A program made the translations under genes and the position numbers. From a virus, in the IMG/VR virus record IMGVR_UViG_3300037258_001195, positions 28,988 through 92,987 of that record: a stretch of DNA of 64,000 bases. The stretch is one strand, 5' to 3'. The notes under the pieces were generated by a model that was not told where the DNA came from, searched no databases, and was given only the letters and a program-made list of their open reading frames with translations. Positions 9,484 to 29,208 of the stretch are shown piece after piece; positions within the stretch are counted from its first letter, which is position 1, and every line of letters starts with the position of its first letter.

Positions 9484-10092
9484 TCACCACCAATTCGTTC
9501 CGTCAAAATTAAACGTCTCTTTTTGCCCGCTAGTTACCAGCGCGAACGAAGCTAGACCGCGAATCGTTCCAGACGATGGAGTTATTGTGCACGGGTAAGT
9601 GCCGAAATTATTTCCTGTGTCGATGAAAGCCACATTACTATTTGTGCTGTAATCAGACTTTAAAGTTACCGTAATCGGCGCTGACGATGTATTATCCACA
9701 TACACAGTCGTATATGGATGGTCAATAGTTTCATTCGTATGAATGGTAGTTGCAAGACCTATTGTGGTTCCGCTGGAGATGGCAACCCAAACCGCGTTGC
9801 CAGGAGTAACTCCCGCGCTTACACAAATATATAAGCTCTCGGTATCTGTATTATACCACAACGACCCCGCGCCGAAAAGCTGCGTGTAGTCGTTATCTGC
9901 GGTTGGACTAGAATCCGAAACGTTATTTCGTTGATTTAAGACATAACAACCGATTGCAATGAGGAACGCGACATCAATTACGTTCGCGTTGTAGATTAAC
10001 TGATATATATCAGAGGCATAGATATTTCCACTGGGGCAGCCTATTGTCTGCTCTGCCGATGGTGTCCAAATGAAAATGGTTGGTCCAGCCAT
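9484..10092 (-). CDS. Virion fibre/adaptor protein with a C-terminal T4 gp9/gp10-like domain
   Basis: PTADND..GSLWYNT repeat and VDNTSSAPITVTL...FDGTNW C-terminus. Confidence 0.55.
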   Translation of the reverse strand: MAGPTIFIWTPSAEQTIGCPSGNIYASDIYQLIYNANVIDVAFLIAIGCYVLNQRNNVSDSSPTADNDYTQLFGAGSLWYNTDTESLYICVSAGVTPGNAVWVAISSGTTIGLATTIHTNETIDHPYTTVYVDNTSSAPITVTLKSDYSTNSNVAFIDTGNNFGTYPCTITPSSGTIRGLASFALVTSGQKETFNFDGTNWW

Positions 10093-18164: not shown

Positions 18165-19820
18165 CTAGAAGGCGAAGTTGCCGGTCGTGGGATTAACGTT
18201 ATTGATGACGGCGAAGCCCGGCGTGAAGTAGCACGGAAAGACTTCATCCGCATACACGCCATACTCATATCGCCGCGACCGCCAGGGCCATTGGATCTGA
18301 TAATAATCCTGCCGAACGCGAGCCTCCAATATATTCCCCACGCCGCTCAGCTCATACGGACTCCGATCCGACCAGAACAAGATCGTCCCAGGCGGAATAT
18401 ACGGATGCAGCTCTACGTCGAGCGTATTTCCGAAGAACTTGTTGATATAGGACGTGATCTTATAGCCCGCAACCAACTGCCCCTTTTCGTTGTTCTCGAA
18501 AAAGAGCCGGAAGATATTCGACGTGCCCGACTGACTCATCATCGCGCCGAAGCTGTTCAGCATATCGACCGAGGAGATCAAAATCCGATCAAACCCGATC
18601 TTATACTGGTCATACGCGGCGCGAAGAATTGAGTCGAACTCGTTGATATTGACGCCGTTAATCGTGAGGCCCGTGTTCCCGTTGGGACACGAATACACGA
18701 GCGATCCCGAGGGGCTCAACGTGACATTCGCAGGCAACGTAGCCGCAGTTGCCATCTGAGTCCCAGGCGCCGGCCCTGTGATGTTGCCGAAGACCTGATT
18801 CAGAATGCCATCGGGAGTCAGGAAATTGATTGAATTGTCCTGATAATTCCCGCCGACCTGAAGCGATGTAACCGGCTGCGCAGTTGCGGTATTGGGGAAT
18901 TTCGTAAAGACCGCCTGAGTCGAGGGCGAGATGCCCGCGAGATATTCGGCACCGGAAGCCGACCCAATAAACCATGCGTAGCCCATCGCCCCGACCACGG
19001 AAGCAACCGTAGCGGTTACGATTTGGGTTGAGGACGTGCCGACACTTGCCTCAGCGGAAGGTTGTGCCGAGCCGCCGCCATAGGTATCGGACGAGCCGTC
19101 GGCGTTGATTCGGGTGATCTGCCCAAGAACACCGCCAGTTCCAGTTGCCGCGTTGTATGGAGAATAATTCGCAATCCCCATTCCCGTAAGCGCAACGGCG
19201 CGAACGTAGACAGTTCCGCCCGAGAATGACCCGGTATTTCCGCCGCCAGCGGCTCCCGCGGAGAGCGTCGGAGTCGGCGTAATCCCCAGCGGCAGATTTG
19301 CGTCGCCATTGATGAGAAGCTTTTCCTCATCAATCATCAACGAACGAAGACTCGACTGAACACTGATCCCAAGCGTTTCCGGCGAGAGATTTCGACCCGC
19401 AAGCCGCGCCTCGAACGTGACCGAACTCTCGTAGCCGACCGTCTTAAAGGTCGCCATCTGATCCTGTTCGGAGATCGGAATACGCCCGCCACGATTACCT
19501 TCCGAGACGCCCGAGGACATTCCGTTGGGATTAATCGCAACAATACGTTTCCAATGATAGCTGTTTCCGCCGTCCGCGGCAACGCGAGGAAGCCGAGAAA
19601 TTCGCGGAATCAATTCCCGATACGGATAGAGCATCTGGACAACCGGCGACAGATCGTACCAGAGCAGATTCGTGCTCTGGGAAATCGTATCCGCCTTCGC
19701 TAGAGCATCCGGACCATATTCCGTGTCCAGAAATTTCCTAAAGGTCTCGTTCTGCGTCAGTGCAGAGACGAACTCATTCCCGATCCCGCCAGGGCCGGTG
19801 AAAGGAACATTACCCGACAT
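18165..19820 (-). CDS. Major capsid protein with a large insertion domain
   Basis: Follows protease/scaffold; PRISRLPRV, HPYIPPGTIL, YEYGVYADE; strongly biased codons. Confidence 0.85.
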   Translation of the reverse strand: MSGNVPFTGPGGIGNEFVSALTQNETFRKFLDTEYGPDALAKADTISQSTNLLWYDLSPVVQMLYPYRELIPRISRLPRVAADGGNSYHWKRIVAINPNGMSSGVSEGNRGGRIPISEQDQMATFKTVGYESSVTFEARLAGRNLSPETLGISVQSSLRSLMIDEEKLLINGDANLPLGITPTPTLSAGAAGGGNTGSFSGGTVYVRAVALTGMGIANYSPYNAATGTGGVLGQITRINADGSSDTYGGGSAQPSAEASVGTSSTQIVTATVASVVGAMGYAWFIGSASGAEYLAGISPSTQAVFTKFPNTATAQPVTSLQVGGNYQDNSINFLTPDGILNQVFGNITGPAPGTQMATAATLPANVTLSPSGSLVYSCPNGNTGLTINGVNINEFDSILRAAYDQYKIGFDRILISSVDMLNSFGAMMSQSGTSNIFRLFFENNEKGQLVAGYKITSYINKFFGNTLDVELHPYIPPGTILFWSDRSPYELSGVGNILEARVRQDYYQIQWPWRSRRYEYGVYADEVFPCYFTPGFAVINNVNPTTGNFAF

Positions 19821-19856
19821 CAACGTTCTCCTAATTCAAAATTAATAGGGTGGCAA

Positions 19857-22193
19857 TTACGCCCGCTTACCGGCGGCGGCGCCACGAAAACTCGGATCAA
19901 AGATCGACCGTCCATTCGTGCCGTTGAGGATGTAGGTTCCGGCAACTTTTCGCCGCGCACCTTCATCATTCTCAAGCTGCATCGGAGAAACGCCCGCATC
20001 CTGGATCGCCTTCATAAGCGGGTCGCTACCCGCTCCGTCGGCGCCATTTCCGTTTCCGATGACTTTCGTCATATCAAACGCATACGGTGCACGACTGGAC
20101 GTGCTGCGGGCCAGAAGATTATTCTGGGCTTCGAGCCGCGCGTTTTCGATGAAGAGCTGAGCCGTCGCGGCATCGATTCGGCCATCCTTGCCAACCGCCT
20201 TTGCCAACTTGCCCCAATCCTTGTCAAGCGCCTGGATCGGCGGCTCGCGGCTACCACCTCGCGTCCCGGGTCCAGCAGTTGCAAGATCGCTCGGCGATAG
20301 GTCAGTGACGCCAGGGGGAACTCGATAGAATTCATTCCCGTGCGTTGGCTCCTGTTCCTTCTCACCAGATCGTCCCGCCATCTTTTTCAACTGTTCCCGG
20401 GCAGCCTTGGTAAAGGTGGAGACCTTCGACAGTTCTGAATATGCCTTATTCAGCTTATCCATCGCACCAGCCGAGTCGAATTCACCATCTTCCTCGTCGG
20501 GCTTCGCCTTACCCTTCGCCGCCTTCTCCATCTTGGAGATATAATAGGCTTTGATGAGCTTGGAGCACTCCTCGATCGCACCGGCAGCTTCCTTGCGAGC
20601 CTTCGACGCTTTCTTCATATTATCGCCCGCAGACTTCATCCGCATCGCCCGAGTTGGCTGAGCCGCCCGCTTGATTACGTCGAGAATCGCGTCCTGCAGA
20701 GGATCGCCCCCGCTAGTCTTCCTGAGATCGTCGCTCGTCGCTGCCATTTCGAAATCCTCACCTAAGAATTGCATGAGATATTGGTCATCGATGTCAGAAA
20801 GATCAACTGCCTCCTGACCTTCATGAGTTGCTTTCTGACCGATGACCGAAGCCAGAATCTGCGCCGCGGAACCTAGGTCTTTCGCCAGGCCCTTGTCCTT
20901 CATATCGCCGCCTTCACCCTTCGCCTCACGAAGAAGACTTCGTTGCGCCGAGCGAATCGAGTCGAAACAGAATGCCAACGACCCAGCAACTTCCATTCGC
21001 TTCGAAAGCGGTGCGGCGAAACTATCTTGTCCGCCTTCCTGAGACTGTCCCAACGTCAGCCACGACGGGAGTACGGGAGGCGCCGCTCCGTCGTCCCTCT
21101 CAGCGGCCTTTAGGGTCAGGAAGGACGGCACTACCGCCGAGCCCGAAGACTTAGTAAGAGATTTAAGAATTACTTTCTCATTAGCGAGTTTTGAGATTGC
21201 CGATGCGCGAGCGGCTTTCTTAGCTTCCTTTGCTGCGGCTTTCTTGCCCCATTTCTCGGGCAACATATCAGTCGCCCCGAGCGCGGCAGCGCGAGCTTTG
21301 ATGTGGCTCTTTGCCTTCCCTTTGTCCTTGGCACGGCCAAAAGCCGACACAGCATCCCCGAGAGCTTCTTTGTCGGGAATCGGATAACTCCCATCGGGAA
21401 GGGCAATCCCTTTCCCCGCATATTCCTTTCGTTGATCGGACGAGTACTCCCGTTTCGAAATATCTTCGCCGCATGTCGGACAGCCCGCAACTCCATGAAC
21501 GGAGCAAATTTTCGTATTCGCTGCGTCTAGCGGATTGCTAGTCTGCGCGTCAAACGGCGGCTTTCCATCTGCCTTCGCTGTTTTCTTTGGCTTTATCTTC
21601 TCTTGTACGTCACGAACTAATTCGTCCTGACTCGGGGCCTTGGTGAGAAATTCACTGACCATCGCGAAGCTATTGGCAAGTTTCTGAACACGAGTCTTCT
21701 TGGCCTTCCGAAACGCCACTCCCGGCTCAAACGCCAATGCTCCCGTCTTGTCCATCTTTGCCATATTAAACCGACACTCTGGATTCGCGGGCCGGTCGAC
21801 AATGGAGATCTCGGTCATCGAAAGTCGGGTAATCTTATTCGGATCGTTGGGATCTTTGTCGAGTTTCCGCCCCCCGATCGAAAATCCCTTATAGACCTTA
21901 TCGACAACTTTCTTCCAGGCGTCGTCGTCGGAAATCTTCGCGGTCAACCAAAGTCCCTTTCGGTCAACATGCGCCTCTTCGGCAGTTCCAACGGCTTGGA
22001 GCCGATGCATCTCCCGAATATTACCATACTGCATATAATCCGGGAGAGCTGACTTAATCGCCTCAAGTGCGATCGTTTCTCCATCTGAGTCCTTTGCCTC
22101 GGTCGAAGCGTAGCCTGAGATTGTCCTCTTAGCTTCGTCGACCTTAGTGATCGGCAAAAAGAAATTAAGGTCGCTCATCTTAGTCTCCGACAA
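19857..22193 (-). CDS. HK97-type prohead protease fused to a scaffold (with a DUF6582-like domain)
   Basis: GYASTE..DSDGE, IREMH, YKGFSIGG, EISIVDRPANP; then ALPDGSYPI domain and a Lys-rich region. Confidence 0.85.
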   Translation of the reverse strand: MSETKMSDLNFFLPITKVDEAKRTISGYASTEAKDSDGETIALEAIKSALPDYMQYGNIREMHRLQAVGTAEEAHVDRKGLWLTAKISDDDAWKKVVDKVYKGFSIGGRKLDKDPNDPNKITRLSMTEISIVDRPANPECRFNMAKMDKTGALAFEPGVAFRKAKKTRVQKLANSFAMVSEFLTKAPSQDELVRDVQEKIKPKKTAKADGKPPFDAQTSNPLDAANTKICSVHGVAGCPTCGEDISKREYSSDQRKEYAGKGIALPDGSYPIPDKEALGDAVSAFGRAKDKGKAKSHIKARAAALGATDMLPEKWGKKAAAKEAKKAARASAISKLANEKVILKSLTKSSGSAVVPSFLTLKAAERDDGAAPPVLPSWLTLGQSQEGGQDSFAAPLSKRMEVAGSLAFCFDSIRSAQRSLLREAKGEGGDMKDKGLAKDLGSAAQILASVIGQKATHEGQEAVDLSDIDDQYLMQFLGEDFEMAATSDDLRKTSGGDPLQDAILDVIKRAAQPTRAMRMKSAGDNMKKASKARKEAAGAIEECSKLIKAYYISKMEKAAKGKAKPDEEDGEFDSAGAMDKLNKAYSELSKVSTFTKAAREQLKKMAGRSGEKEQEPTHGNEFYRVPPGVTDLSPSDLATAGPGTRGGSREPPIQALDKDWGKLAKAVGKDGRIDAATAQLFIENARLEAQNNLLARSTSSRAPYAFDMTKVIGNGNGADGAGSDPLMKAIQDAGVSPMQLENDEGARRKVAGTYILNGTNGRSIFDPSFRGAAAGKRA

Positions 22194-22224: not shown

Positions 22225-22467
22225 CTAATTCGTAAAGCTCGCTTGTGAGCCAACCTGGACATTCGGTCGGAGACCCGTAACAAGCATGGTCATCAAGGTG
22301 TTGAGAAGAATCTGCCCATCCGCGCGAAGCGCCCCCGAGGACGTAAAAGTCAAACCGCCCCCAGCAATTTGCGGGGCCGCAGCGGCGACCGTAAGCGTAT
22401 CGCCCGCCTGATCGGTAATAACATAGGTCGTAACGTTGTTCGAATAGGTCGACGTGATCGCAGCCAT
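22225..22467 (-). CDS. Small putative structural protein
   Basis: GAGGAG RBS; T/A/G-rich. Confidence 0.55.
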   Translation of the reverse strand: MAAITSTYSNNVTTYVITDQAGDTLTVAAAAPQIAGGGLTFTSSGALRADGQILLNTLMTMLVTGLRPNVQVGSQASFTN

Positions 22468-23862
22468 TTAAATTTCTCCTCGATTCAGCCGACTATCGGC
22501 CAGTTTACGAACGTATTTGATAACCCGAGCTACGGAATCAGTCCACGTCAAATCTCGCCCCTGCGTGAAGATCCTAAAATCTTCATACCACGGCGTTCCG
22601 ACGGGTGAATCCCACCATCGCCAGCAACGAGTGTACGGTCCGAGCATTACGACTGGCTTACCCATCGCTCCCGCGAGATGCACCACTGCGCTATCGACAG
22701 AAATAACCAGGTCCAATTCCTGAATAAATCGGGCGGTGTCGTAGAAGTCCTCAATGGCGTGCATAGAGTCGAGCATAAGCGCTTCTGCGCCAAGGGCAAG
22801 GACCTCTTTAGATTCTTCGCCTTTTTGCAGTGAAATGACCTGAACGCCAGGAATTTCCATTAATGGAAGAAACATTGAGAGCGGAATAACTCGACGCCGA
22901 AGGCTCAATGTTTTCCCGTGATCGCCAGAAGACCAGCAAAGACCAATTTTAAATTTACCAGGAATTCGGCGAATAAGGGGCTCTTTTACAGTCAAGTATG
23001 GTTCCGACGAAATATCCTTCGGCATAATTTCCGAATGCCGAATCATACTCAGCATGGGTGTGTGAAAGTCAAAGTTCTTCGCATTCGCCTCAGGTGGAAG
23101 ACTTTCACAATCCCAGACCTGAATATCCGGAAAGTTCTCCGCGAACAAACGGACCAAAGGTGCTGCGGTAGCTAAAACGATGCTCCGGGTCCGCGTAGAG
23201 AGCTTCGCCAAAAATCGAACGAACATCAGACTATCGCCATAGCCTTGTTCGTGATGGACTAAGATGCGTTTTTCGTCTAGATTCTCTCCCTGCCATTCAG
23301 GGATGCCAAGGTTCCAGACGGGATTCTTATACAATTCCTCCCACCGAATCTCATAAAGTGGAAGACCCTGGTCGAGGCGCCCTTGCGACATAATCGTTAA
23401 AGCGTGATCGTTCTTGGTTGCGTAGGCGTCGTAACCCAAAGCTCGCGCGCGCACCATCGCGTCTTCGGCGTCAGCGAACCTATTCTGACGATACAGCAAC
23501 GTCCCGTAAGTATGCCAAATTGCCGGATCACTTGGCTTAAGCCGCCTAGCTTCTCGCAATTGCTCCCGGGCGCCATCAATCCGACCAAGCGCAACCAAAT
23601 TAATCGCCAGGTTGTTCCGCGCTTGAAAGTCCTTTGGATCAATTGCAACGGCGCGCTGCCCGACGGTAATTCCCATCTCATGCTTCTGGAGCTTGTAGAG
23701 GATTCCCGCTAGATTCGACAAAACAACCGAATTATTCGGATCAATAAGAAGTGCTCCCATGTAATGGACGCGAGCGATTTCAAATTCGCCAGCCATTTGA
23801 TGCTGGCTACCTTTGAGATTCAGCCCGTAAATTCGACGAATCGAATTATCATCCAACGGCAT
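22468..23862 (-). CDS. TPR-repeat glycosyltransferase (GT9-like, GT-B fold)
   Basis: N-terminal TPRs; W.GE.L..KRILV..EQGYGD...FVRF; LDLVISVDSAVVHLAGAMG; PWY. Confidence 0.9.
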   Translation of the reverse strand: MPLDDNSIRRIYGLNLKGSQHQMAGEFEIARVHYMGALLIDPNNSVVLSNLAGILYKLQKHEMGITVGQRAVAIDPKDFQARNNLAINLVALGRIDGAREQLREARRLKPSDPAIWHTYGTLLYRQNRFADAEDAMVRARALGYDAYATKNDHALTIMSQGRLDQGLPLYEIRWEELYKNPVWNLGIPEWQGENLDEKRILVHHEQGYGDSLMFVRFLAKLSTRTRSIVLATAAPLVRLFAENFPDIQVWDCESLPPEANAKNFDFHTPMLSMIRHSEIMPKDISSEPYLTVKEPLIRRIPGKFKIGLCWSSGDHGKTLSLRRRVIPLSMFLPLMEIPGVQVISLQKGEESKEVLALGAEALMLDSMHAIEDFYDTARFIQELDLVISVDSAVVHLAGAMGKPVVMLGPYTRCWRWWDSPVGTPWYEDFRIFTQGRDLTWTDSVARVIKYVRKLADSRLNRGEI

Positions 23863-23889: not shown

Positions 23890-24588
23890 TTACGACCCAG
23901 TCAACGGCGCGTTGAATGAGTACATGAAGCCATAAGTATGGGAGGCGTTCGGCGCACTCGACGGCGTAATGGTTGCCAACGTTACCGCCGATGCGGTGCC
24001 AACCGTTTCATCCCCAGCATTCGTCGTCTCTTTAATAAAGACAACATCTTTTGCACCGGGATTCACTGGAACCGAAATTGCGGCAGTCGAATCGATCTGA
24101 ATGCCCGGCGAGGTGCCACCGACAAGACCTGCAACGGTCGGCGCGGAGAGATGCACGATACCTTTCGAGGTAAACGTCGTTGCGGTCCCGCTTGCCGGAG
24201 CGGCAAGAGAGAACACATCAACTTGGGACGTGCCATCATTGGCGAGATATGGAATCGAGATCGTGCCGCCTGTTACGGCAGACGTCCCCGCAGCAACAAC
24301 AACGGCACCTTGCCGCGGAACGTCTGGTTGCGCCGCAACCGAAAGCGTGCCATTCGCAAGCGATGTCGAGCCGACGAATTTCCCGGCCGCCGCAGCAACA
24401 ACTACGGGAGTCATGCCGTAGTTGAAGACTTGTGCAACGAGAAGTTCCGCCCCAGCAGCTAAGAGCGCAGAAATATCTCGCGAATCAACATTCGCCGTCC
24501 CGTCGGCCCCAGCAACATACGTCCCGTAATTGCCGACAATTTGACCGCCCAAGCTCCCAATAAACATTTTCACAGTCGACGAAGCCAT
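23890..24588 (-). CDS. Putative capsid decoration / structural protein
   Basis: S/T/A/G-rich; QPDVPR; lies in the head module. Confidence 0.55.
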   Translation of the reverse strand: MASSTVKMFIGSLGGQIVGNYGTYVAGADGTANVDSRDISALLAAGAELLVAQVFNYGMTPVVVAAAAGKFVGSTSLANGTLSVAAQPDVPRQGAVVVAAGTSAVTGGTISIPYLANDGTSQVDVFSLAAPASGTATTFTSKGIVHLSAPTVAGLVGGTSPGIQIDSTAAISVPVNPGAKDVVFIKETTNAGDETVGTASAVTLATITPSSAPNASHTYGFMYSFNAPLTGS

Positions 24589-24602: not shown

Positions 24603-27086
24603 TCAAGCGTTAAGTTGTAACCAACGGGGGCCGGAAGAAAGCCTCTTCTTAGTCTTCTTCATTCTCTTCTTCCGTTGCGGGCCTAAGTCCCTAGAAACAA
24701 GATTCGTTCCGGTCGAAATGGTATCCATCTTCTGGACCAACGCACCTCGACGTGCAACGATAGTTCCAAAGCCTTGCCTAGCAATCGCATGTTTGTGGTC
24801 GCCAGTCTTGAGCCATCGCTTAAACTCGTCCATCGACATCGCGACCATCGCGCCGAGACGTTCTGGACCAAGTCCATCTCCGTTCGAAGCGAAATAATCG
24901 TCCATCACGGCTTTGGATTTACGATATCCAAGAAAGACCTTGTGTTCGTCGAATAATCCGGTCTGCGCGTCAAACTGATCCACCACGAAGACAAACGGGC
25001 TTTTAGGATGTCGGCCGATGCAGACATCAATCTGATCTCCATCGGCGCCCAAGGTTCCGCGGAGATATCCGTAATCTCCGGCCATTTTAGATGACCATTT
25101 CGTCCCGTCATCTTCATGCCCATGGCGTTTCTTCCCCTTCGGGGTTTCAATCGAAATGCTTAACCCTTGAAGCCAAACATGGGCTTTTTTGTAATTTCCG
25201 GCTTTCTTCTGGTGCTTTGAGGGTTTCTGGACATCTTTGGTCGCGGCGCGCAGGACGGAGTACGCGAGCTTGTGGATTGTGGTTGGAGTTCCTGAAGGCT
25301 CCCCATGAGGCCGTGGCGAGCCGCGCTGCGCGGTGTTCTCACCTTTTGGCTGCGGGCTTCCATCCCCCTTCGGCTTACTACCCGACAATTTCGGCTTACC
25401 GCTCGCGTCGTCGCCTAGACTTCCACTACCCGGCGCGAACTGTTGCCCCTCAACTGCCATGTGAAGAGGGACAATTCCCGCCCCCGTCGTAACAGTTGCA
25501 ATATCCCCATCGTCGGCAAACGGTTCTTCACCAAGCTCGGCGCGAATTTCATTCCGAGTCCGGACTCCTTCGTTGATCTGAATTTGCTGAATCTGAGCTT
25601 GTTTTAGCAAATCAACTTCGGGCCGTGGAAGATAGACAAATTCGACATCGTCATAGCCAAAGGCATTTATGATCGGGTCAATTACGTCGTCTTTCCACCA
25701 AGTCATAAGGGGGTAGAGACCCTCTTCCTCGGCAGTCTGTTGTGCGTTTTGCGCCGTCGAGCGATTGGTCTGTTTGATGAATGGAGTTGGACTAACCGAG
25801 AACGCATAACATGCTAGGCGGATTAGCATTTCATCTCTATTGGACCAGAGACTCTCACCCGAAGCGTTTTTAATGTCGAAAGGTTTCATCCCACCAGGAA
25901 CGAAACGGACCTTCGATTTGAGAGTCAGATTCCCCGAGAGAACTGCATCGAAATGGGCTTGAAAGGATGCAATCTGGCGTGGCGTCCATTGATCTGGAAC
26001 AGTCACGATTAACTCGGGCATCGAGCCATTACGCCAAAATTCAGCCTGATAAAGGGTTTTTCGAATCGCCTCGGTCGTTTCGATAAGCATTTGTTCAATA
26101 GGCGAATAGCCGAACATCGGAAGTTCGGGTCGGGGTCGCATAATCGGATAATGAAGCTCATCTTCCGACAAATTAATCATCGGAAGCCCGTAGATGATCT
26201 GTTGAAAGGCTGGCTGGCGACGGATGTAGGTTAGCCCGTCGGGACCAACTTCAACCGTCGTATCGGGACGCCGGCCCGTGTCGTCGATCAGGGGAAAGAT
26301 CGTCGCGCCATCAAGAACTTGGGCATATTGAACTTGGTCCGTTCGATCGCGACTAATGTAGATACTGGGAGCGTCGATGTCGAAGAGATCGAAAAGCAGC
26401 TTTCGCGACCATTGGGAATAGCTCATCTTCCCGTCGGGCTTGCGAAAAACCTTCTTCATGTGCTCGACGCCAATAGAAGTCTGGCGTGGTTTGTCTTTAC
26501 GTTGAATCGTCCAGGGAATCCGAAGCAACTGGTCCATGCGGGTTGATTCGACCGTCGCCAGAACGCCCCAAGAACTCCGCATCGCGCGAAGCATTCCATA
26601 AAGGGCCATACGCTTGGGGACGTAATTTAGATTATATCCAACCGGAAAGTCCCATTCCCGGGGAACGTTGTAATAGGGCGGACCAAAGGGCCAAACTGGC
26701 TCCATTGGGCTATACCAGACATTCGCCATATCAACGTCGTCAATCCACGGCGGCGGCTGAGATAGACGCTCGTCGGCGTATTTGGATCGACTAGGGTAGT
26801 TCTCATTTCCCCCAGGAACACCGAACTGTTGCGGAAATTGCTTCAGTCCGGTTCCTTGGTTTCCAGACGGGCGATTTCGGGGGCCGGTGGGGGCAAATGA
26901 CGATGTGTTCTGATACGCCCGCCCCACCATTCCAACACCAGGGTTGTAGCCGGGGGAGACGGGAATTCCGCGCGACTTAGCGAAATTGTCTTTATCTTGC
27001 GACCATTCCGAGAAGCTCTGACGCGGACGTGGCGAGAATTGATCTGCCTGAAGGTCGCGGAGCTTCGTTAGGAATTCATCATTCAT
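24603..27086 (-). CDS. Portal protein fused to an inorganic-pyrophosphatase-like (InPase) domain
   Basis: LDGATIFPL, FGYSPIEQ, CYAFSVSP, GVRTRNEIRAELG; C-terminal ETPKG..DYGYL.GT.GADGDQIDV..FDEHKVFLG. Confidence 0.85.
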   Translation of the reverse strand: MNDEFLTKLRDLQADQFSPRPRQSFSEWSQDKDNFAKSRGIPVSPGYNPGVGMVGRAYQNTSSFAPTGPRNRPSGNQGTGLKQFPQQFGVPGGNENYPSRSKYADERLSQPPPWIDDVDMANVWYSPMEPVWPFGPPYYNVPREWDFPVGYNLNYVPKRMALYGMLRAMRSSWGVLATVESTRMDQLLRIPWTIQRKDKPRQTSIGVEHMKKVFRKPDGKMSYSQWSRKLLFDLFDIDAPSIYISRDRTDQVQYAQVLDGATIFPLIDDTGRRPDTTVEVGPDGLTYIRRQPAFQQIIYGLPMINLSEDELHYPIMRPRPELPMFGYSPIEQMLIETTEAIRKTLYQAEFWRNGSMPELIVTVPDQWTPRQIASFQAHFDAVLSGNLTLKSKVRFVPGGMKPFDIKNASGESLWSNRDEMLIRLACYAFSVSPTPFIKQTNRSTAQNAQQTAEEEGLYPLMTWWKDDVIDPIINAFGYDDVEFVYLPRPEVDLLKQAQIQQIQINEGVRTRNEIRAELGEEPFADDGDIATVTTGAGIVPLHMAVEGQQFAPGSGSLGDDASGKPKLSGSKPKGDGSPQPKGENTAQRGSPRPHGEPSGTPTTIHKLAYSVLRAATKDVQKPSKHQKKAGNYKKAHVWLQGLSISIETPKGKKRHGHEDDGTKWSSKMAGDYGYLRGTLGADGDQIDVCIGRHPKSPFVFVVDQFDAQTGLFDEHKVFLGYRKSKAVMDDYFASNGDGLGPERLGAMVAMSMDEFKRWLKTGDHKHAIARQGFGTIVARRGALVQKMDTISTGTNLVSRDLGPQRKKRMKKTKKRLSSGPRWLQLNA

Positions 27087-27219
27087 AGCAGGCCTTGCAC
27101 AACGCCAAGCCATTCTGGACAATTAAGGGTCTTAAAGCATCGTTTCTCAAGTACGTAACACAAGTAACACTTTGGATGAATCCAACCTTTTAATTTTGTA
27201 TTGATTATATATGGAATTT

Positions 27220-27490: not shown

Positions 27491-27721
27491 TCAGTGAAAG
27501 ACAAGATCGCTTCCATTCTCGGGCGAAATCATTTGGTCCGGTTCTGTTTCGCCCCGTTTGGCTTGGATTTTTGCGTAACCGACAATCTCAAGATTCCGCA
27601 ATTTCACGGCGCGGAGCTTGTTCTCGACCGCGATGATTGCCAGGGGCGAACCTTTTCGTCCGGGTGCGTAGCCTACGACCATACCCTCTTCGCCGGACTT
27701 GAGCTTGACCAAGAGCTTCAT
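27491..27721 (-). CDS. Hypothetical protein
   Basis: ATGA-coupled to TerL. Confidence 0.55.
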   Translation of the reverse strand: MKLLVKLKSGEEGMVVGYAPGRKGSPLAIIAVENKLRAVKLRNLEIVGYAKIQAKRGETEPDQMISPENGSDLVFH

Positions 27722-29208
27722 GCCGCGTCCCTCGCATGTCCATAACCAGCGCAGCCTGGATGCCAGACAAATTCCCCGTCCGACACGCGATCCCCGGCCG
27801 AAACTGGGTCACCGCAGCGATGACATGTCCGCTCGCGGCGCGGCGTGAGGGCTTCGACGGTGGATTGATAGATTTTCGTCAGTTCGTTCTCGAAATCGAC
27901 ACCGAGATTCTCATCTTCGTGATTCCACGGGAGCCGCGGCTTCGGATCGTCAGAGACATTCTCGATTGTCCGCTTGGCTTCGCCGGCGTAGTAGGACATA
28001 AGGCTCGCCCCGGGCGCGACTTCGGTCAGCATTTGGCGCGCGAGAGCCAGGGAACACACGCAATCGTCGTTATGTCCCTCTGGGGCAGAATATCTAACGC
28101 CAGTACGGGTGGTCTCGTATTCGAAAATTTCCAATTCTTGGGAAATCGGCCCCTCGGGATAACCGATGTCGTGGCCTTGAATAGAGACGGAAAGCCCCTC
28201 CATCAGACGCTGCTTCGAGAGTTGGGTGAAATTATAGCCTGTGAAATTTCCATGCTCGACCTGGAGTTCTTCCAGTACTGGGTCGCCAACTCCGGTTGAG
28301 TCCACCAGGGCCGGCGTGTCTTCCCCGACAATCGCGTGGATGCGCCGAATTGATTCGGTCCAGGGAACTCCGCGCCACCGCTCGAAAACAGCCGTTTGAC
28401 CATCCTCATCGAGGCCAATGACCACGAGATAGTCTTGTTTTTTCGCGAGGTCGACGCCGAAGGCAACTGCGGGCTTGAGGCTTAGACCGTTTTGGATGCA
28501 CGCGGAGATATGGGCAAAGCCGAATGGGTTTCCGCCGTCGTCACTGGCCGCCGCCTCATACAGCTCCAGGAAGACTTGTTCGGGAAGATTTCGCCGAGCG
28601 TCTTCGATTTCCTCGATGTCCAGGACGCCCGCATCGACCGCGTCGCGCCAAGTGATCCGCTCGAAATGTGCGTTGGGGTCTTTGCCTGCCTCGACTCGGC
28701 GCGCCCACTCGTAGAACCAATTCCTTCGGCCCTTGACGTTGCCGATGATAACCGCCCAGCCGCGCGTTGCGGTCAAGGTTGATCGGACGGCATACCATGC
28801 TTCCGGGCGGGCGCGGCTAGCTTCATCGATAACAGCGCCGAAGACGTCTTCGCCATAGAGACTGTCGGGATTGTCCGCCGACTTAAACCAGAGGACTGCG
28901 CCGGTAATTAAGGTGATTGATGGAGTCGGGCTTTCGCGCGCCGTGAAAGATCCCGCCGTTAGGTTTTGCTTGACGCGGGCGAAGGCGATCCGAGCTTGGT
29001 CGGAAACCGGCGCGACCCACCAGAAGTTCTGGCCGAAAGTCCCATTCAGGCCGGCCTCGATGAGCCGCACGATCGCCCCGACAGTTTTGCCTGATTTGGT
29101 TGAGGCTTCGCAAAGAGCCCAACGTTTGGACGGGAATATGGCGCGTTCTTGCTTTGGATATAAATACGGGCGCTCGTAAACGGTTATGGGTGAACCAGTT
29201 TCGTCCAA
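27718..29208 (-). CDS. terL: Terminase large subunit
   Basis: Walker A ASTKSGKT, Walker B VIDEA, nuclease GVDLAKKQD and HNDDCVCSLAL. Confidence 0.92.
   Translation of the reverse strand: MDETGSPITVYERPYLYPKQERAIFPSKRWALCEASTKSGKTVGAIVRLIEAGLNGTFGQNFWWVAPVSDQARIAFARVKQNLTAGSFTARESPTPSITLITGAVLWFKSADNPDSLYGEDVFGAVIDEASRARPEAWYAVRSTLTATRGWAVIIGNVKGRRNWFYEWARRVEAGKDPNAHFERITWRDAVDAGVLDIEEIEDARRNLPEQVFLELYEAAASDDGGNPFGFAHISACIQNGLSLKPAVAFGVDLAKKQDYLVVIGLDEDGQTAVFERWRGVPWTESIRRIHAIVGEDTPALVDSTGVGDPVLEELQVEHGNFTGYNFTQLSKQRLMEGLSVSIQGHDIGYPEGPISQELEIFEYETTRTGVRYSAPEGHNDDCVCSLALARQMLTEVAPGASLMSYYAGEAKRTIENVSDDPKPRLPWNHEDENLGVDFENELTKIYQSTVEALTPRRERTCHRCGDPVSAGDRVSDGEFVWHPGCAGYGHARDAA

What the first reader, a model, noticed from the sequence alone, without database searches (positions are those of the whole stretch)
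24680..24735. The portal C-terminus contains a copy of the capsid protein's N-terminal peptide
Seen: portal KMDTISTGTNLVSRDLGP versus MCP KADTISQSTNLLWYDLSP (about 19645-19698), 11/18 identical with diverged synonymous codons, followed in the portal by a very basic tail. Inference: mimicry of the MCP N-arm that lets the portal nucleate or join the shell, or be recognised by the scaffold/protease; in effect a head-targeting tag. I do not know of this being described.
Basis: partly seen in the sequence, partly recalled or inferred. Interest (0 to 1): 0.7.

Follow-up and report, generated by a model that had tools for sequence, protein, structure and literature searches.

The report
Capsid-junction peptide copied onto portal tail
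A phage portal protein that carries an enzyme cargo ends in a disordered tail holding a conserved copy of the short peptide where the major capsid protein is probably trimmed during head maturation, most likely so that the same head protease processes both proteins.

Summary
Portal residues 798-815 and capsid protein (MCP) residues 43-60 share 11 of 18 residues. Inside the window alone this is marginal (E about 0.015). Across relatives it is not chance. All 28 database portal-InPase fusions and every complete portal tail in the fetched loci carry the peptide, as do 119 of 120 related MCPs. A profile built only from portal peptides finds the cognate MCPs at E 5e-10 to 4e-8 and no other protein.

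The peptide lies in a predicted disordered tail after the InPase cargo domain. A polybasic run and an invariant G-P-R-W end follow it.

The copy spans both sides of a hydrophobic-x-Lys position that precedes the N-arm in MCPs down to 24% identity. This recalls the HK97 K103/S104 cleavage site. A similar Lys island sits just before InPase and at the end of the S78 protease domain.

The same module also occurs in three non-portal proteins, one of them a NUDIX-ChaB-protease-scaffold fusion.

Best reading (about 0.5): a portable copy of the MCP maturation junction, read and probably cut by the scaffold-borne prohead protease. Rival (about 0.3): a docking or targeting mimic. No cleavage or binding was shown. 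I found no description of this in the papers searched.

The parts
24603..27122 (-). Portal-InPase fusion gene (839 aa)
   Evidence: Pfam Phage_portal at residues 202-531 (E 2.6e-15) and InPase PF18823 at 637-772 (E 1.4e-43). PHROG portal phrog_2662.
25269..25442 (-). Disordered P/G/S/K-rich linker between portal core and InPase (residues 561-618). It ends in a conserved hydrophobic-x-Lys island (TTIHK, residues 614-618, 25269-25283).
   Evidence: AF2 pLDDT below 50 for 561-618. The island is aligned and present in about 22 of 24 portals within an otherwise variable linker. Coordinates checked.
24744..25262 (-). Folded InPase cargo domain (residues 621-793)
   Evidence: AF2 pLDDT 72-91 with an OB-like beta core. 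Pfam InPase. The same domain occurs in phage polyvalent proteins (PMC5512222).
24678..24737 (-). MCP-junction-like peptide in the portal tail (residues 796-815: hydrophobic-x-K, then D-T-I-S..T-N-L..D-L)
   Evidence: Conserved in 50 unique portal tails: D0 47/50, T1 50/50, S3 44/50, T6 48/50, L8 43/50, Y11 41/50, K-2 39/50 and hydrophobic -4 41/50. K is invariant once a 1-residue gap is allowed. The region is predicted disordered, pLDDT 31-47.
24642..24677 (-). Polybasic run (residues 816-827)
   Evidence: Sequence. A K/R run is present in all portal tails.
24612..24632 (-). Conserved extreme C-terminal motif G-P-R-W-L-x-L (residues 831-837)
   Evidence: G831, W834 and L837 are invariant and P832 and R833 nearly so in 24 portals. 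More distant ~500-aa portals without InPase end in a polybasic run plus G-P-R-Y.
18165..19823 (-). Major capsid protein gene (552 aa, HK97-type fold)
   Evidence: tblastn matches annotated MCPs of Arthrobacter phages Sonali and Mufasa8 and proteins of two Brevundimonas phages. The AF2 model has weak HK97-fold capsid matches.
19644..19703 (-). MCP junction: L41-A-K43 followed by the start of the N-arm (residues 44-60)
   Evidence: Invariant in 77 unique MCPs of the clade. The hydrophobic-x-K just before the S/T-rich N-arm start is kept in MCP relatives down to 24% identity. Disordered in the monomer model.
19695..19823 (-). Putative MCP N-terminal propeptide (residues 1-43, two predicted helices at 16-36)
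   Evidence: AF2 secondary structure. Length and sequence of this part vary between MCP sub-families, whereas homology starts at the junction. Its removal is inferred, not shown.
19857..22193 (-). Prohead protease (S78)-scaffold fusion (778 aa). The protease domain is about residues 1-146 and ends in F-N-M-A-K146 (21756-21770).
   Evidence: Pfam Peptidase_S78 at 17-146. H63, S105 and K146 are invariant in 11 homologs. The architecture resembles P2 gpO (PMC7552001).

Best explanation
The portal peptide is a portable copy of the MCP's maturation junction. That junction is the hydrophobic-x-Lys position at the end of the MCP's short N-terminal propeptide plus the first ~15 residues of the N-arm. 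It sits as a short linear motif in a disordered tail. It is most likely read by the same machinery that reads it in the MCP: the S78 prohead protease fused to the scaffold.

During head maturation the protease would cut after (or next to) Lys798. This would separate the InPase cargo from the polybasic, G-P-R-W-ended tail. A second conserved Lys island at residue 618 would separate InPase from the portal core. Together the two cuts would free a ~20 kDa InPase inside the head, in step with MCP trimming.

Shown: the mimicry, its conservation, its disordered context, its portability and the recurrent Lys islands.
For: (1) Every one of the 28 database portal-InPase fusions, and every fetched locus with a complete portal tail, carries the module. 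119 of 120 clade MCPs carry it too. Profile searches in both directions link only these two sites.
(2) The copy spans both sides of the junction: G-x-hydrophobic-x-K upstream and D-T-[IV]-S-x-x-T-[GN]-L downstream. The downstream W-Y-D-L half, invariant in MCPs, has decayed in several portals, including the window's own.
(3) Hydrophobic-x-Lys immediately precedes the N-arm in all 25 aligned MCP relatives down to 24% identity. The type S78 enzyme of HK97 cuts its MCP at K103/S104, at the start of the N-arm (PMC10275583).
(4) The window encodes an S78 protease with invariant His63 and Ser105, fused to a scaffold. P2 gpO has the same architecture; there the MCP, the portal and gpO itself are all cleaved, presumably by gpO (PMC7552001).
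(5) Aligned hydrophobic-x-Lys islands also occur in the linker just before InPase (about 22 of 24 portals), at the end of the protease domain (K146 invariant), and in the linkers or tails of related portals with other cargo.
(6) The tail is predicted disordered and so accessible, while InPase is folded.
(7) The module moves. In L060 it lies between the portal core and InPase. In P0192 it lies between a NUDIX domain and ChaB-protease-scaffold. In P0190 and P0189 it lies in other proteins. It is always preceded by hydrophobic-x-Lys and always in inter-domain positions.
(8) Precedents exist for head proteins sharing a protease site: SPN3US gp245 cuts MCP, portal and ejection proteins at A-X-E (PMC10052503), and 80alpha CP, SP and L27 share the Prp site (PMC5744158).
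Against: There are no experimental data on cleavage in this phage group, for the MCP or the portal. The strongest conservation in the portal copy is on the P' side (D0, T1, T6), not on the Lys (39/50 at the exact position). A simple cleavage site would not need about 15 conserved P' residues, and the linker island before InPase has none of them. This points to binding by something in addition to, or instead of, an active site. Cutting at residue 798 alone frees only the basic tail, not InPase. Hydrophobic-x-Lys is a short pattern expected about once per 60-residue linker by chance, so only its aligned conservation carries weight. The BcepF1 portal-InPase fusion, from another portal family, has no MCP-like peptide. 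All occurrences come from one phage clade, so the co-occurrence with InPase counts as few independent events.
Confidence: 0.5

Rival explanations
1. Docking or targeting mimic. The peptide acts by binding, not by being cut. As a surrogate MCP N-arm it would occupy the site that a real N-arm occupies. That site could be on neighbouring MCP subunits, for instance the acceptor sites left empty around the portal where the penton is missing, or on the scaffold in the procapsid. It would thereby strap the portal and cargo to the shell, or carry non-portal proteins into the head as a capsid-targeting tag.
For: The best-conserved positions lie in the part corresponding to the N-arm proper. The motif covers about 18 residues, longer than usual protease sites. 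It occurs on proteins that are not themselves head building blocks (P0190, P0189), where a targeting role would make sense. In the P74-26 portal vertex, arms of accessory proteins (PVP, Dec) replace contacts lost with the missing penton (PMC12407722). Scaffold domains bind near the N-arm in P22 and T7 (PMC10275583).
Against: Residues upstream of the putative mature N-terminus (hydrophobic-x-K) are copied too. The hydrophobic L-L-W-Y-D-L half, which would be expected to be the main anchor, is the least conserved part in portals and is degenerate in the window's own copy. Sister portals without InPase lack the peptide although their MCP has it (L039). There is no co-variation between the two peptides.
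Confidence: 0.3
2. Glycosylation sequon. The Ser/Thr-rich core (D-T-I-S-x-S-T) would be the acceptor recognised by the TPR-GT9-like transferase encoded between portal and protease (22468-23862). That enzyme would modify both MCP and portal tail.
For: The invariant shared residues include Thr1 and Thr6. A TPR plus GT9-like gene is present in every locus of the InPase-portal clade with enough downstream sequence, including L060.
Against: The MCP motif predates the transferase: L039 has it and has no such gene between portal and protease. Both peptides are expected on the inside of the head. The Ala/Thr/Gly-rich 232-aa neighbour is a more obvious substrate. The co-occurrence amounts to one clade-level event.
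Confidence: 0.05
3. No shared function. The resemblance would be chance, a neutral relic of an old recombination, or the peptide would simply be a structural strand of the InPase domain.
For: The within-window statistics alone are marginal (E about 0.015).
Against: Profile E-values are down to 5e-10 in both directions. The motif is conserved across portals only about 50-60% identical overall. It is absent from all non-portal InPase proteins found. It changes position relative to InPase in L060. It is predicted disordered.
Confidence: 0.04

Closest known systems
Common cleavage motifs of prohead-protease substrates (HK97 gp4 on gp5 at K103/S104; SPN3US gp245 at A-X-E in MCP, portal and ejection proteins; P2 gpO on gpN, gpQ and gpO)
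   Same: One head protease trims MCP, portal and internal proteins at sites that share a motif. The protease is fused to the scaffold as in P2. Lys lies next to the start of the N-arm as in HK97.
   Different: Known motifs cover 3-4 residues on the P side. Here about 20 residues spanning both sides of the MCP junction are copied, at the C-terminal side of a cargo domain. Cleavage itself is untested.
Shared N-terminal Prp-site peptide of 80alpha capsid protein, scaffolding protein and ribosomal protein L27
   Same: An extended peptide (13-14 residues) is shared by non-homologous proteins because one protease reads it. It also occurs on other phage proteins.
   Different: There the protease is a host enzyme, the peptide is N-terminal and is the part removed, and the portal is not involved.
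Capsid-targeting or cargo-loading peptides (T4 internal-protein CTS, HK97 protease C-terminal signal, encapsulin cargo-loading peptides), recalled from general knowledge and not tested here
   Same: A short portable peptide on unrelated cargo proteins, linked to head interior localisation. In T4 it is removed by the head protease.
   Different: Those tags do not resemble the capsid protein's own N-arm. Here most carriers (portal, protease-scaffold) need no tag to enter the head.
Accessory arms that replace missing penton contacts at the portal vertex (P74-26 PVP and Dec N-arms)
   Same: Extended arms from non-MCP proteins join MCP beta-sheets around the portal aperture.
   Different: Those arms come from separate decoration proteins and do not copy the MCP sequence. 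No structural evidence exists for the present peptide.
Portal-InPase fusions of phage polyvalent-protein systems (Iyer et al. 2017)
   Same: The same InPase domain is fused to a portal and is proposed to be packaged and injected.
   Different: In the passages I searched (terms InPase and portal), that paper does not mention a C-terminal tail or any MCP-like peptide. The cited example, BcepF1 gp124, lacks it.

Membership tests
Substrate of an S78 (HK97-type) prohead protease | A cognate S78 protease with catalytic His and Ser is encoded in the head module | tested here: met
   Pfam Peptidase_S78, E 1.1e-7. His63 and Ser105 are invariant in 11 homologs.
Substrate of an S78 (HK97-type) prohead protease | The site shares a motif with the protease's other substrates, above all the MCP maturation site | tested here: inconclusive
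   The portal site copies the putative MCP junction. Hydrophobic-x-Lys recurs at four domain boundaries. However, the MCP cleavage site itself is inferred by analogy with HK97 K103/S104.
Substrate of an S78 (HK97-type) prohead protease | The site lies in an accessible, unstructured region inside the head | tested here: met
   Tail 794-839 and linker 561-618 have pLDDT below 50 while InPase is folded. The portal C-terminus faces the head interior (general knowledge of portal structure).
Substrate of an S78 (HK97-type) prohead protease | Protease-dependent cleavage is observed | not testable with these tools
   Needs proteomics or in vitro cleavage.
Capsid-targeting / cargo-loading peptide | The same short peptide occurs on several unrelated proteins destined for the head interior | tested here: met
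   The module is found in portal-InPase, NUDIX-ChaB-protease-scaffold (P0192), P0190 and P0189. The genomic context of the last three could not be fetched.
Capsid-targeting / cargo-loading peptide | The peptide binds shell or scaffold and is sufficient for encapsidation | not testable with these tools
   This needs a reporter-fusion encapsidation experiment or a solved portal-vertex structure; no tool here can show binding.
MCP N-arm (HK97 fold) | The segment lies between the propeptide or scaffold domain and the P-domain, and is disordered in the isolated subunit | tested here: met
   MCP residues 39-90 have pLDDT below 50 after helices 16-36. Homology among MCPs starts at this segment.
Polyvalent-protein InPase domain (PF18823) | Full-length match to the InPase profile above the gathering score | tested here: met
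   148.4 bits against a cut-off of 26.8, profile positions 2-135 of 135.

The most novel reading that the evidence does not exclude
The module is a true structural surrogate of the MCP N-arm. After, or without, cleavage, its D-T-I-S...Y-D segment would insert into the N-arm acceptor sites of the hexons around the portal, which the missing penton leaves empty. In other carriers it would insert elsewhere in the shell. That would give a sequence-encoded way to bridge the 12-fold portal and the 5-fold vertex. It would also act as a general tag that fixes cargo enzymes (InPase, NUDIX, ParB-like) to the inner capsid wall.
Probability: 0.2. Interest if true: 0.8.

Novelty: new variant of a known kind. 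Interest (0 to 1): 0.6.

Why it matters
Two open questions meet here: how cargo enzymes fused to portals are freed for injection, and how a 12-fold portal is matched to a 5-fold capsid vertex. This clade is abundant in metagenomes (425 MCP relatives at E<=1e-10, the best 120 at 67% identity or more). It offers a defined ~20-residue peptide shared by MCP, portal cargo tail and at least three other proteins.

If the peptide is a cleavage module, it gives the first extended recognition element for an HK97-type prohead protease. It would also be a rule for predicting which head-protein fusions are released as free effectors. If it is a docking mimic, it would be a new principle of portal-shell coupling and a natural tag for loading proteins into capsids. 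Either way the predictions can be tested with simple co-expression and mass spectrometry.

Tried and rejected
(1) Complex prediction with four chains (MCP 62-552, protease 1-165, scaffold C-terminus 660-778 and portal tail 780-839 as partner) scored 0.00. That is no verdict and counts neither for nor against binding.

(2) Co-variation of the two peptides in 11 genomes gave mean identity 9.73 within genomes against 9.55 between genomes (permutation p=0.29). The test is uninformative because the MCP peptide is nearly invariant.

(3) BLAST had suggested homology extending upstream into the InPase C-terminal helix and the MCP propeptide. Profiles do not support this; their alignments stop at the junction.

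(4) The idea that the peptide is part of the InPase fold was rejected. It is predicted disordered, is absent from non-portal InPase proteins and is relocated in L060.

(5) No solved structure is related to the MCP by sequence. Foldseek gave only weak HK97-fold capsid matches, so the N-arm could not be mapped onto a known lattice.

(6) No isolate in the phage collection carries the tail. The Achromobacter hit is a 2685-aa polyvalent protein. BcepF1 portal-InPase has no MCP-like peptide.

Scans of viral contigs and metagenome contigs returned only ordinary clade loci or a portal-tail fragment. Genome contigs found no relative of the portal.

(8) Papers on Mu-like phages held nothing on portal C-terminal processing.
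Full report
WHAT IS THERE. All genes of the head module lie on the minus strand:
- large terminase, 27718-29208;
- an 839-aa portal, 24603-27122;
- a 232-aa Ala/Thr/Gly-rich protein;
- a TPR plus GT9-like transferase, 22468-23862;
- an 80-aa protein;
- a 778-aa S78 protease-scaffold fusion, 19857-22193;
- a 552-aa MCP, 18165-19823.
The portal is a fusion of a Phage_portal core (residues 202-531) and an InPase domain (637-772). This kind of fusion has already been described for polyvalent-protein systems (PMC5512222).

Portal residues 798-815 and MCP residues 43-60 share 11 of 18 residues. At the DNA level 31 of 54 bases agree, so this is not a recent DNA copy. Inside the window the match is only marginally significant: E=0.014 for the pair, and E=0.016 against all 497 ORFs with the next hit at 0.79.

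CONSERVATION SETTLES THE QUESTION OF CHANCE. A search with the portal C-terminus found 28 portal-InPase fusions. All end in the same tail: hydrophobic-x-K-x-D-T-[IV]-S-x-[SA]-T-[GN]-L-x-x-Y-D-Q, then a Lys/Arg run, then G-P-R-W-L-x-L. Twenty-two non-portal InPase proteins lack it.

I fetched 80 related viral contigs. Ten of them, plus the window, hold both a tailed portal and the MCP, and in every one both peptides are present. Among 120 MCPs of the clade, 119 carry the junction. In 77 unique sequences it is essentially invariant from L-4 to Y+23. An HMM built only from portal peptides retrieves the cognate MCP N-arms at E 5e-10 to 4e-8 among 7638 ORFs and nothing else. The reciprocal MCP profile hits 28 of 29 portal tails, aligned only over about 19-23 residues.

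Co-variation could not be tested, because the MCP peptide hardly varies (p=0.29).

ANATOMY. AF2 models show a folded InPase (621-793, pLDDT 72-91) between a disordered linker (561-618) and a disordered tail (794-839). The MCP has two N-terminal helices (16-36), then a disordered N-arm that contains the motif. The portal peptide is therefore a short linear motif, not part of a fold.

Its position can change. In L060 it lies between the portal core and InPase, and there is no C-terminal tail. More distant ~500-aa portals without InPase end in a polybasic run plus G-P-R-Y but lack the MCP-like peptide. So the basic end is older than the InPase-plus-peptide insert. L039, the nearest outgroup, has the MCP motif, a short portal without the peptide, and a separate MuF gene.

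WHY I FAVOUR A JUNCTION READ BY THE PROTEASE.
- In all 25 aligned MCP relatives, down to 24% identity, a hydrophobic-x-Lys immediately precedes the Ser/Thr-rich start of the N-arm, while the segment before it varies in length and sequence. In HK97, the type S78 system, the MCP is cut at K103/S104, exactly at the start of the N-arm (PMC10275583).
- The window's protease has the invariant His and Ser, and it is fused to a scaffold. P2 gpO has the same layout; there gpN, gpQ (the portal) and gpO itself are all cleaved, presumably by gpO (PMC7552001).
- The portal copy includes the residues upstream of the putative scissile bond. Hydrophobic at -4 is seen in 41 of 50 tails. Lys at -2 is seen in 39 of 50, and Lys is invariant once a one-residue gap is allowed. 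Meanwhile the W-Y-D-L half has decayed in several portals.
- Further aligned hydrophobic-x-Lys islands mark the linker-InPase boundary (about 22 of 24 portals) and the end of the protease domain (K146 invariant). They also occur in the linkers or tails of related portals with MuF or no cargo. In Brevundimonas phage Polewnik, for example, the portal linker and the protease end both read hydrophobic-x-K-A-D-G.
- Two cuts, at Lys618 and Lys798, would free InPase as a ~20 kDa protein inside the head. That fits the proposal that such domains are injected.

THE MODULE IS PORTABLE. A profile of 20 tails was searched against 1.84 billion representative proteins and gave only 19 hits. Most are portal-InPase proteins or fragments of them. 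Three are not:
- P0192 has a NUDIX domain, then the motif (residues 421-440, 85-89% identical to clade MCP junctions), then ChaB, S78 protease and scaffold.
- P0190 has a weak ParB-like N-terminus, the motif in mid-protein, and a hydrophobic C-terminal half.
- P0189 has the motif at residues 21-48.
In all three the motif follows hydrophobic-x-Lys and lies between domains. This is what a processing module would look like.

WHAT ARGUES AGAINST A PURE CLEAVAGE SITE. The best-conserved portal positions are on the P' side (D0, T1, T6). About 15 conserved P' residues is far more than known head-protease motifs need (A-X-E in SPN3US). The linker island has none of them. So something probably binds this segment. 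Candidates are an exosite of the protease-scaffold, the scaffold itself, or the MCP lattice.

The docking reading has a structural precedent. In P74-26, arms of PVP and Dec replace contacts lost with the missing penton (PMC12407722). I give this rival 0.3. The two readings are not exclusive: the T4 capsid-targeting sequences both target and are cut off (general knowledge). A four-chain complex prediction gave no verdict and is not used as evidence.

MINOR RIVALS. The TPR-GT9 gene co-occurs with the clade in every locus with enough sequence. That suggests a glycosylation sequon, but the MCP motif exists without that gene in L039 and both peptides should be internal, so I give it 0.05. Chance, a neutral relic, or a strand of the InPase fold are disfavoured by the profile statistics, the disorder and the relocation in L060 (0.04).

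COMPARISON AND NOVELTY. Head proteins that share a protease site are known (HK97, P2, SPN3US; 80alpha with host Prp). Portal-InPase fusions are known too. I found no description of the following combination in six literature searches: a ~20-residue copy of the MCP junction and N-arm start, conserved in a disordered portal tail and reused on other cargo-bearing head proteins. I class it as a new variant of a known kind. The mechanism remains inferred, and proteomics of procapsids with active and inactive protease would decide it.

Noticed in passing
window 22468-23862 (-), with 23890-24588 and 22225-22467: A TPR plus GT9-like (heptosyltransferase family) gene, a 232-aa Ala/Thr/Gly-rich protein and an 80-aa protein lie between portal and protease. 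Homologs of the transferase are present in every InPase-portal locus with enough downstream sequence, including L060, and absent from L039 and more distant relatives. This may be a virion glycosylation system, with the 232-aa protein as a plausible substrate.
   Followed up: partly
own record G000:C1:6000-24000 (L086), upstream of the window: The 92,987-bp provirus record holds a second head module. It has a 515-aa portal homolog (35% identity, no InPase, no peptide), an S78 protease and an MCP whose N-arm start (I-A-K-T-I-S-T-G-T-G-L-V) resembles the window's portal tail even more closely in its T-I-S-T-G-T core. This suggests two tandem prophages or a composite element.
   Followed up: partly
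P0190, P0192, L062 portal (residue ~785), L079 ORFs at 10086 and 11647: A second short motif, [YF]-D-P-x-Q-P-R-D-x-x-G-R-[WF], recurs in cargo-bearing head proteins of related phages. Like the first, it is preceded by hydrophobic-x-Lys. It may be another portable junction or processing element.
   Followed up: partly
P0006, P0183 (portal-InPase proteins of 1174 and 1577 aa): Some portals of the clade are interrupted by LAGLIDADG-type intein-like inserts (PF14528), which explains their extra length.
   Followed up: no
L021, L031, L033 (ORF upstream of and in frame with the protease); P0192: In several relatives a ChaB domain is fused in frame to the N-terminus of the protease-scaffold. In P0192 a NUDIX domain is added as well. 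So the protease-scaffold, like the portal, serves as a carrier for cargo domains.
   Followed up: partly
L013 (1312-aa open frame), P0186 (1026 aa): In two relatives the portal frame runs on past the G-P-R-W end into a signal-peptide-like segment and a beta-rich protein. This is either a lost stop codon or merged gene calls.
   Followed up: no
window 18165-19823: The MCP open frame starts at TTG 19823, but the database copy (P0056, 551 aa) starts at the ATG one codon later. Residue numbers in this report use the 552-aa frame.
   Followed up: yes
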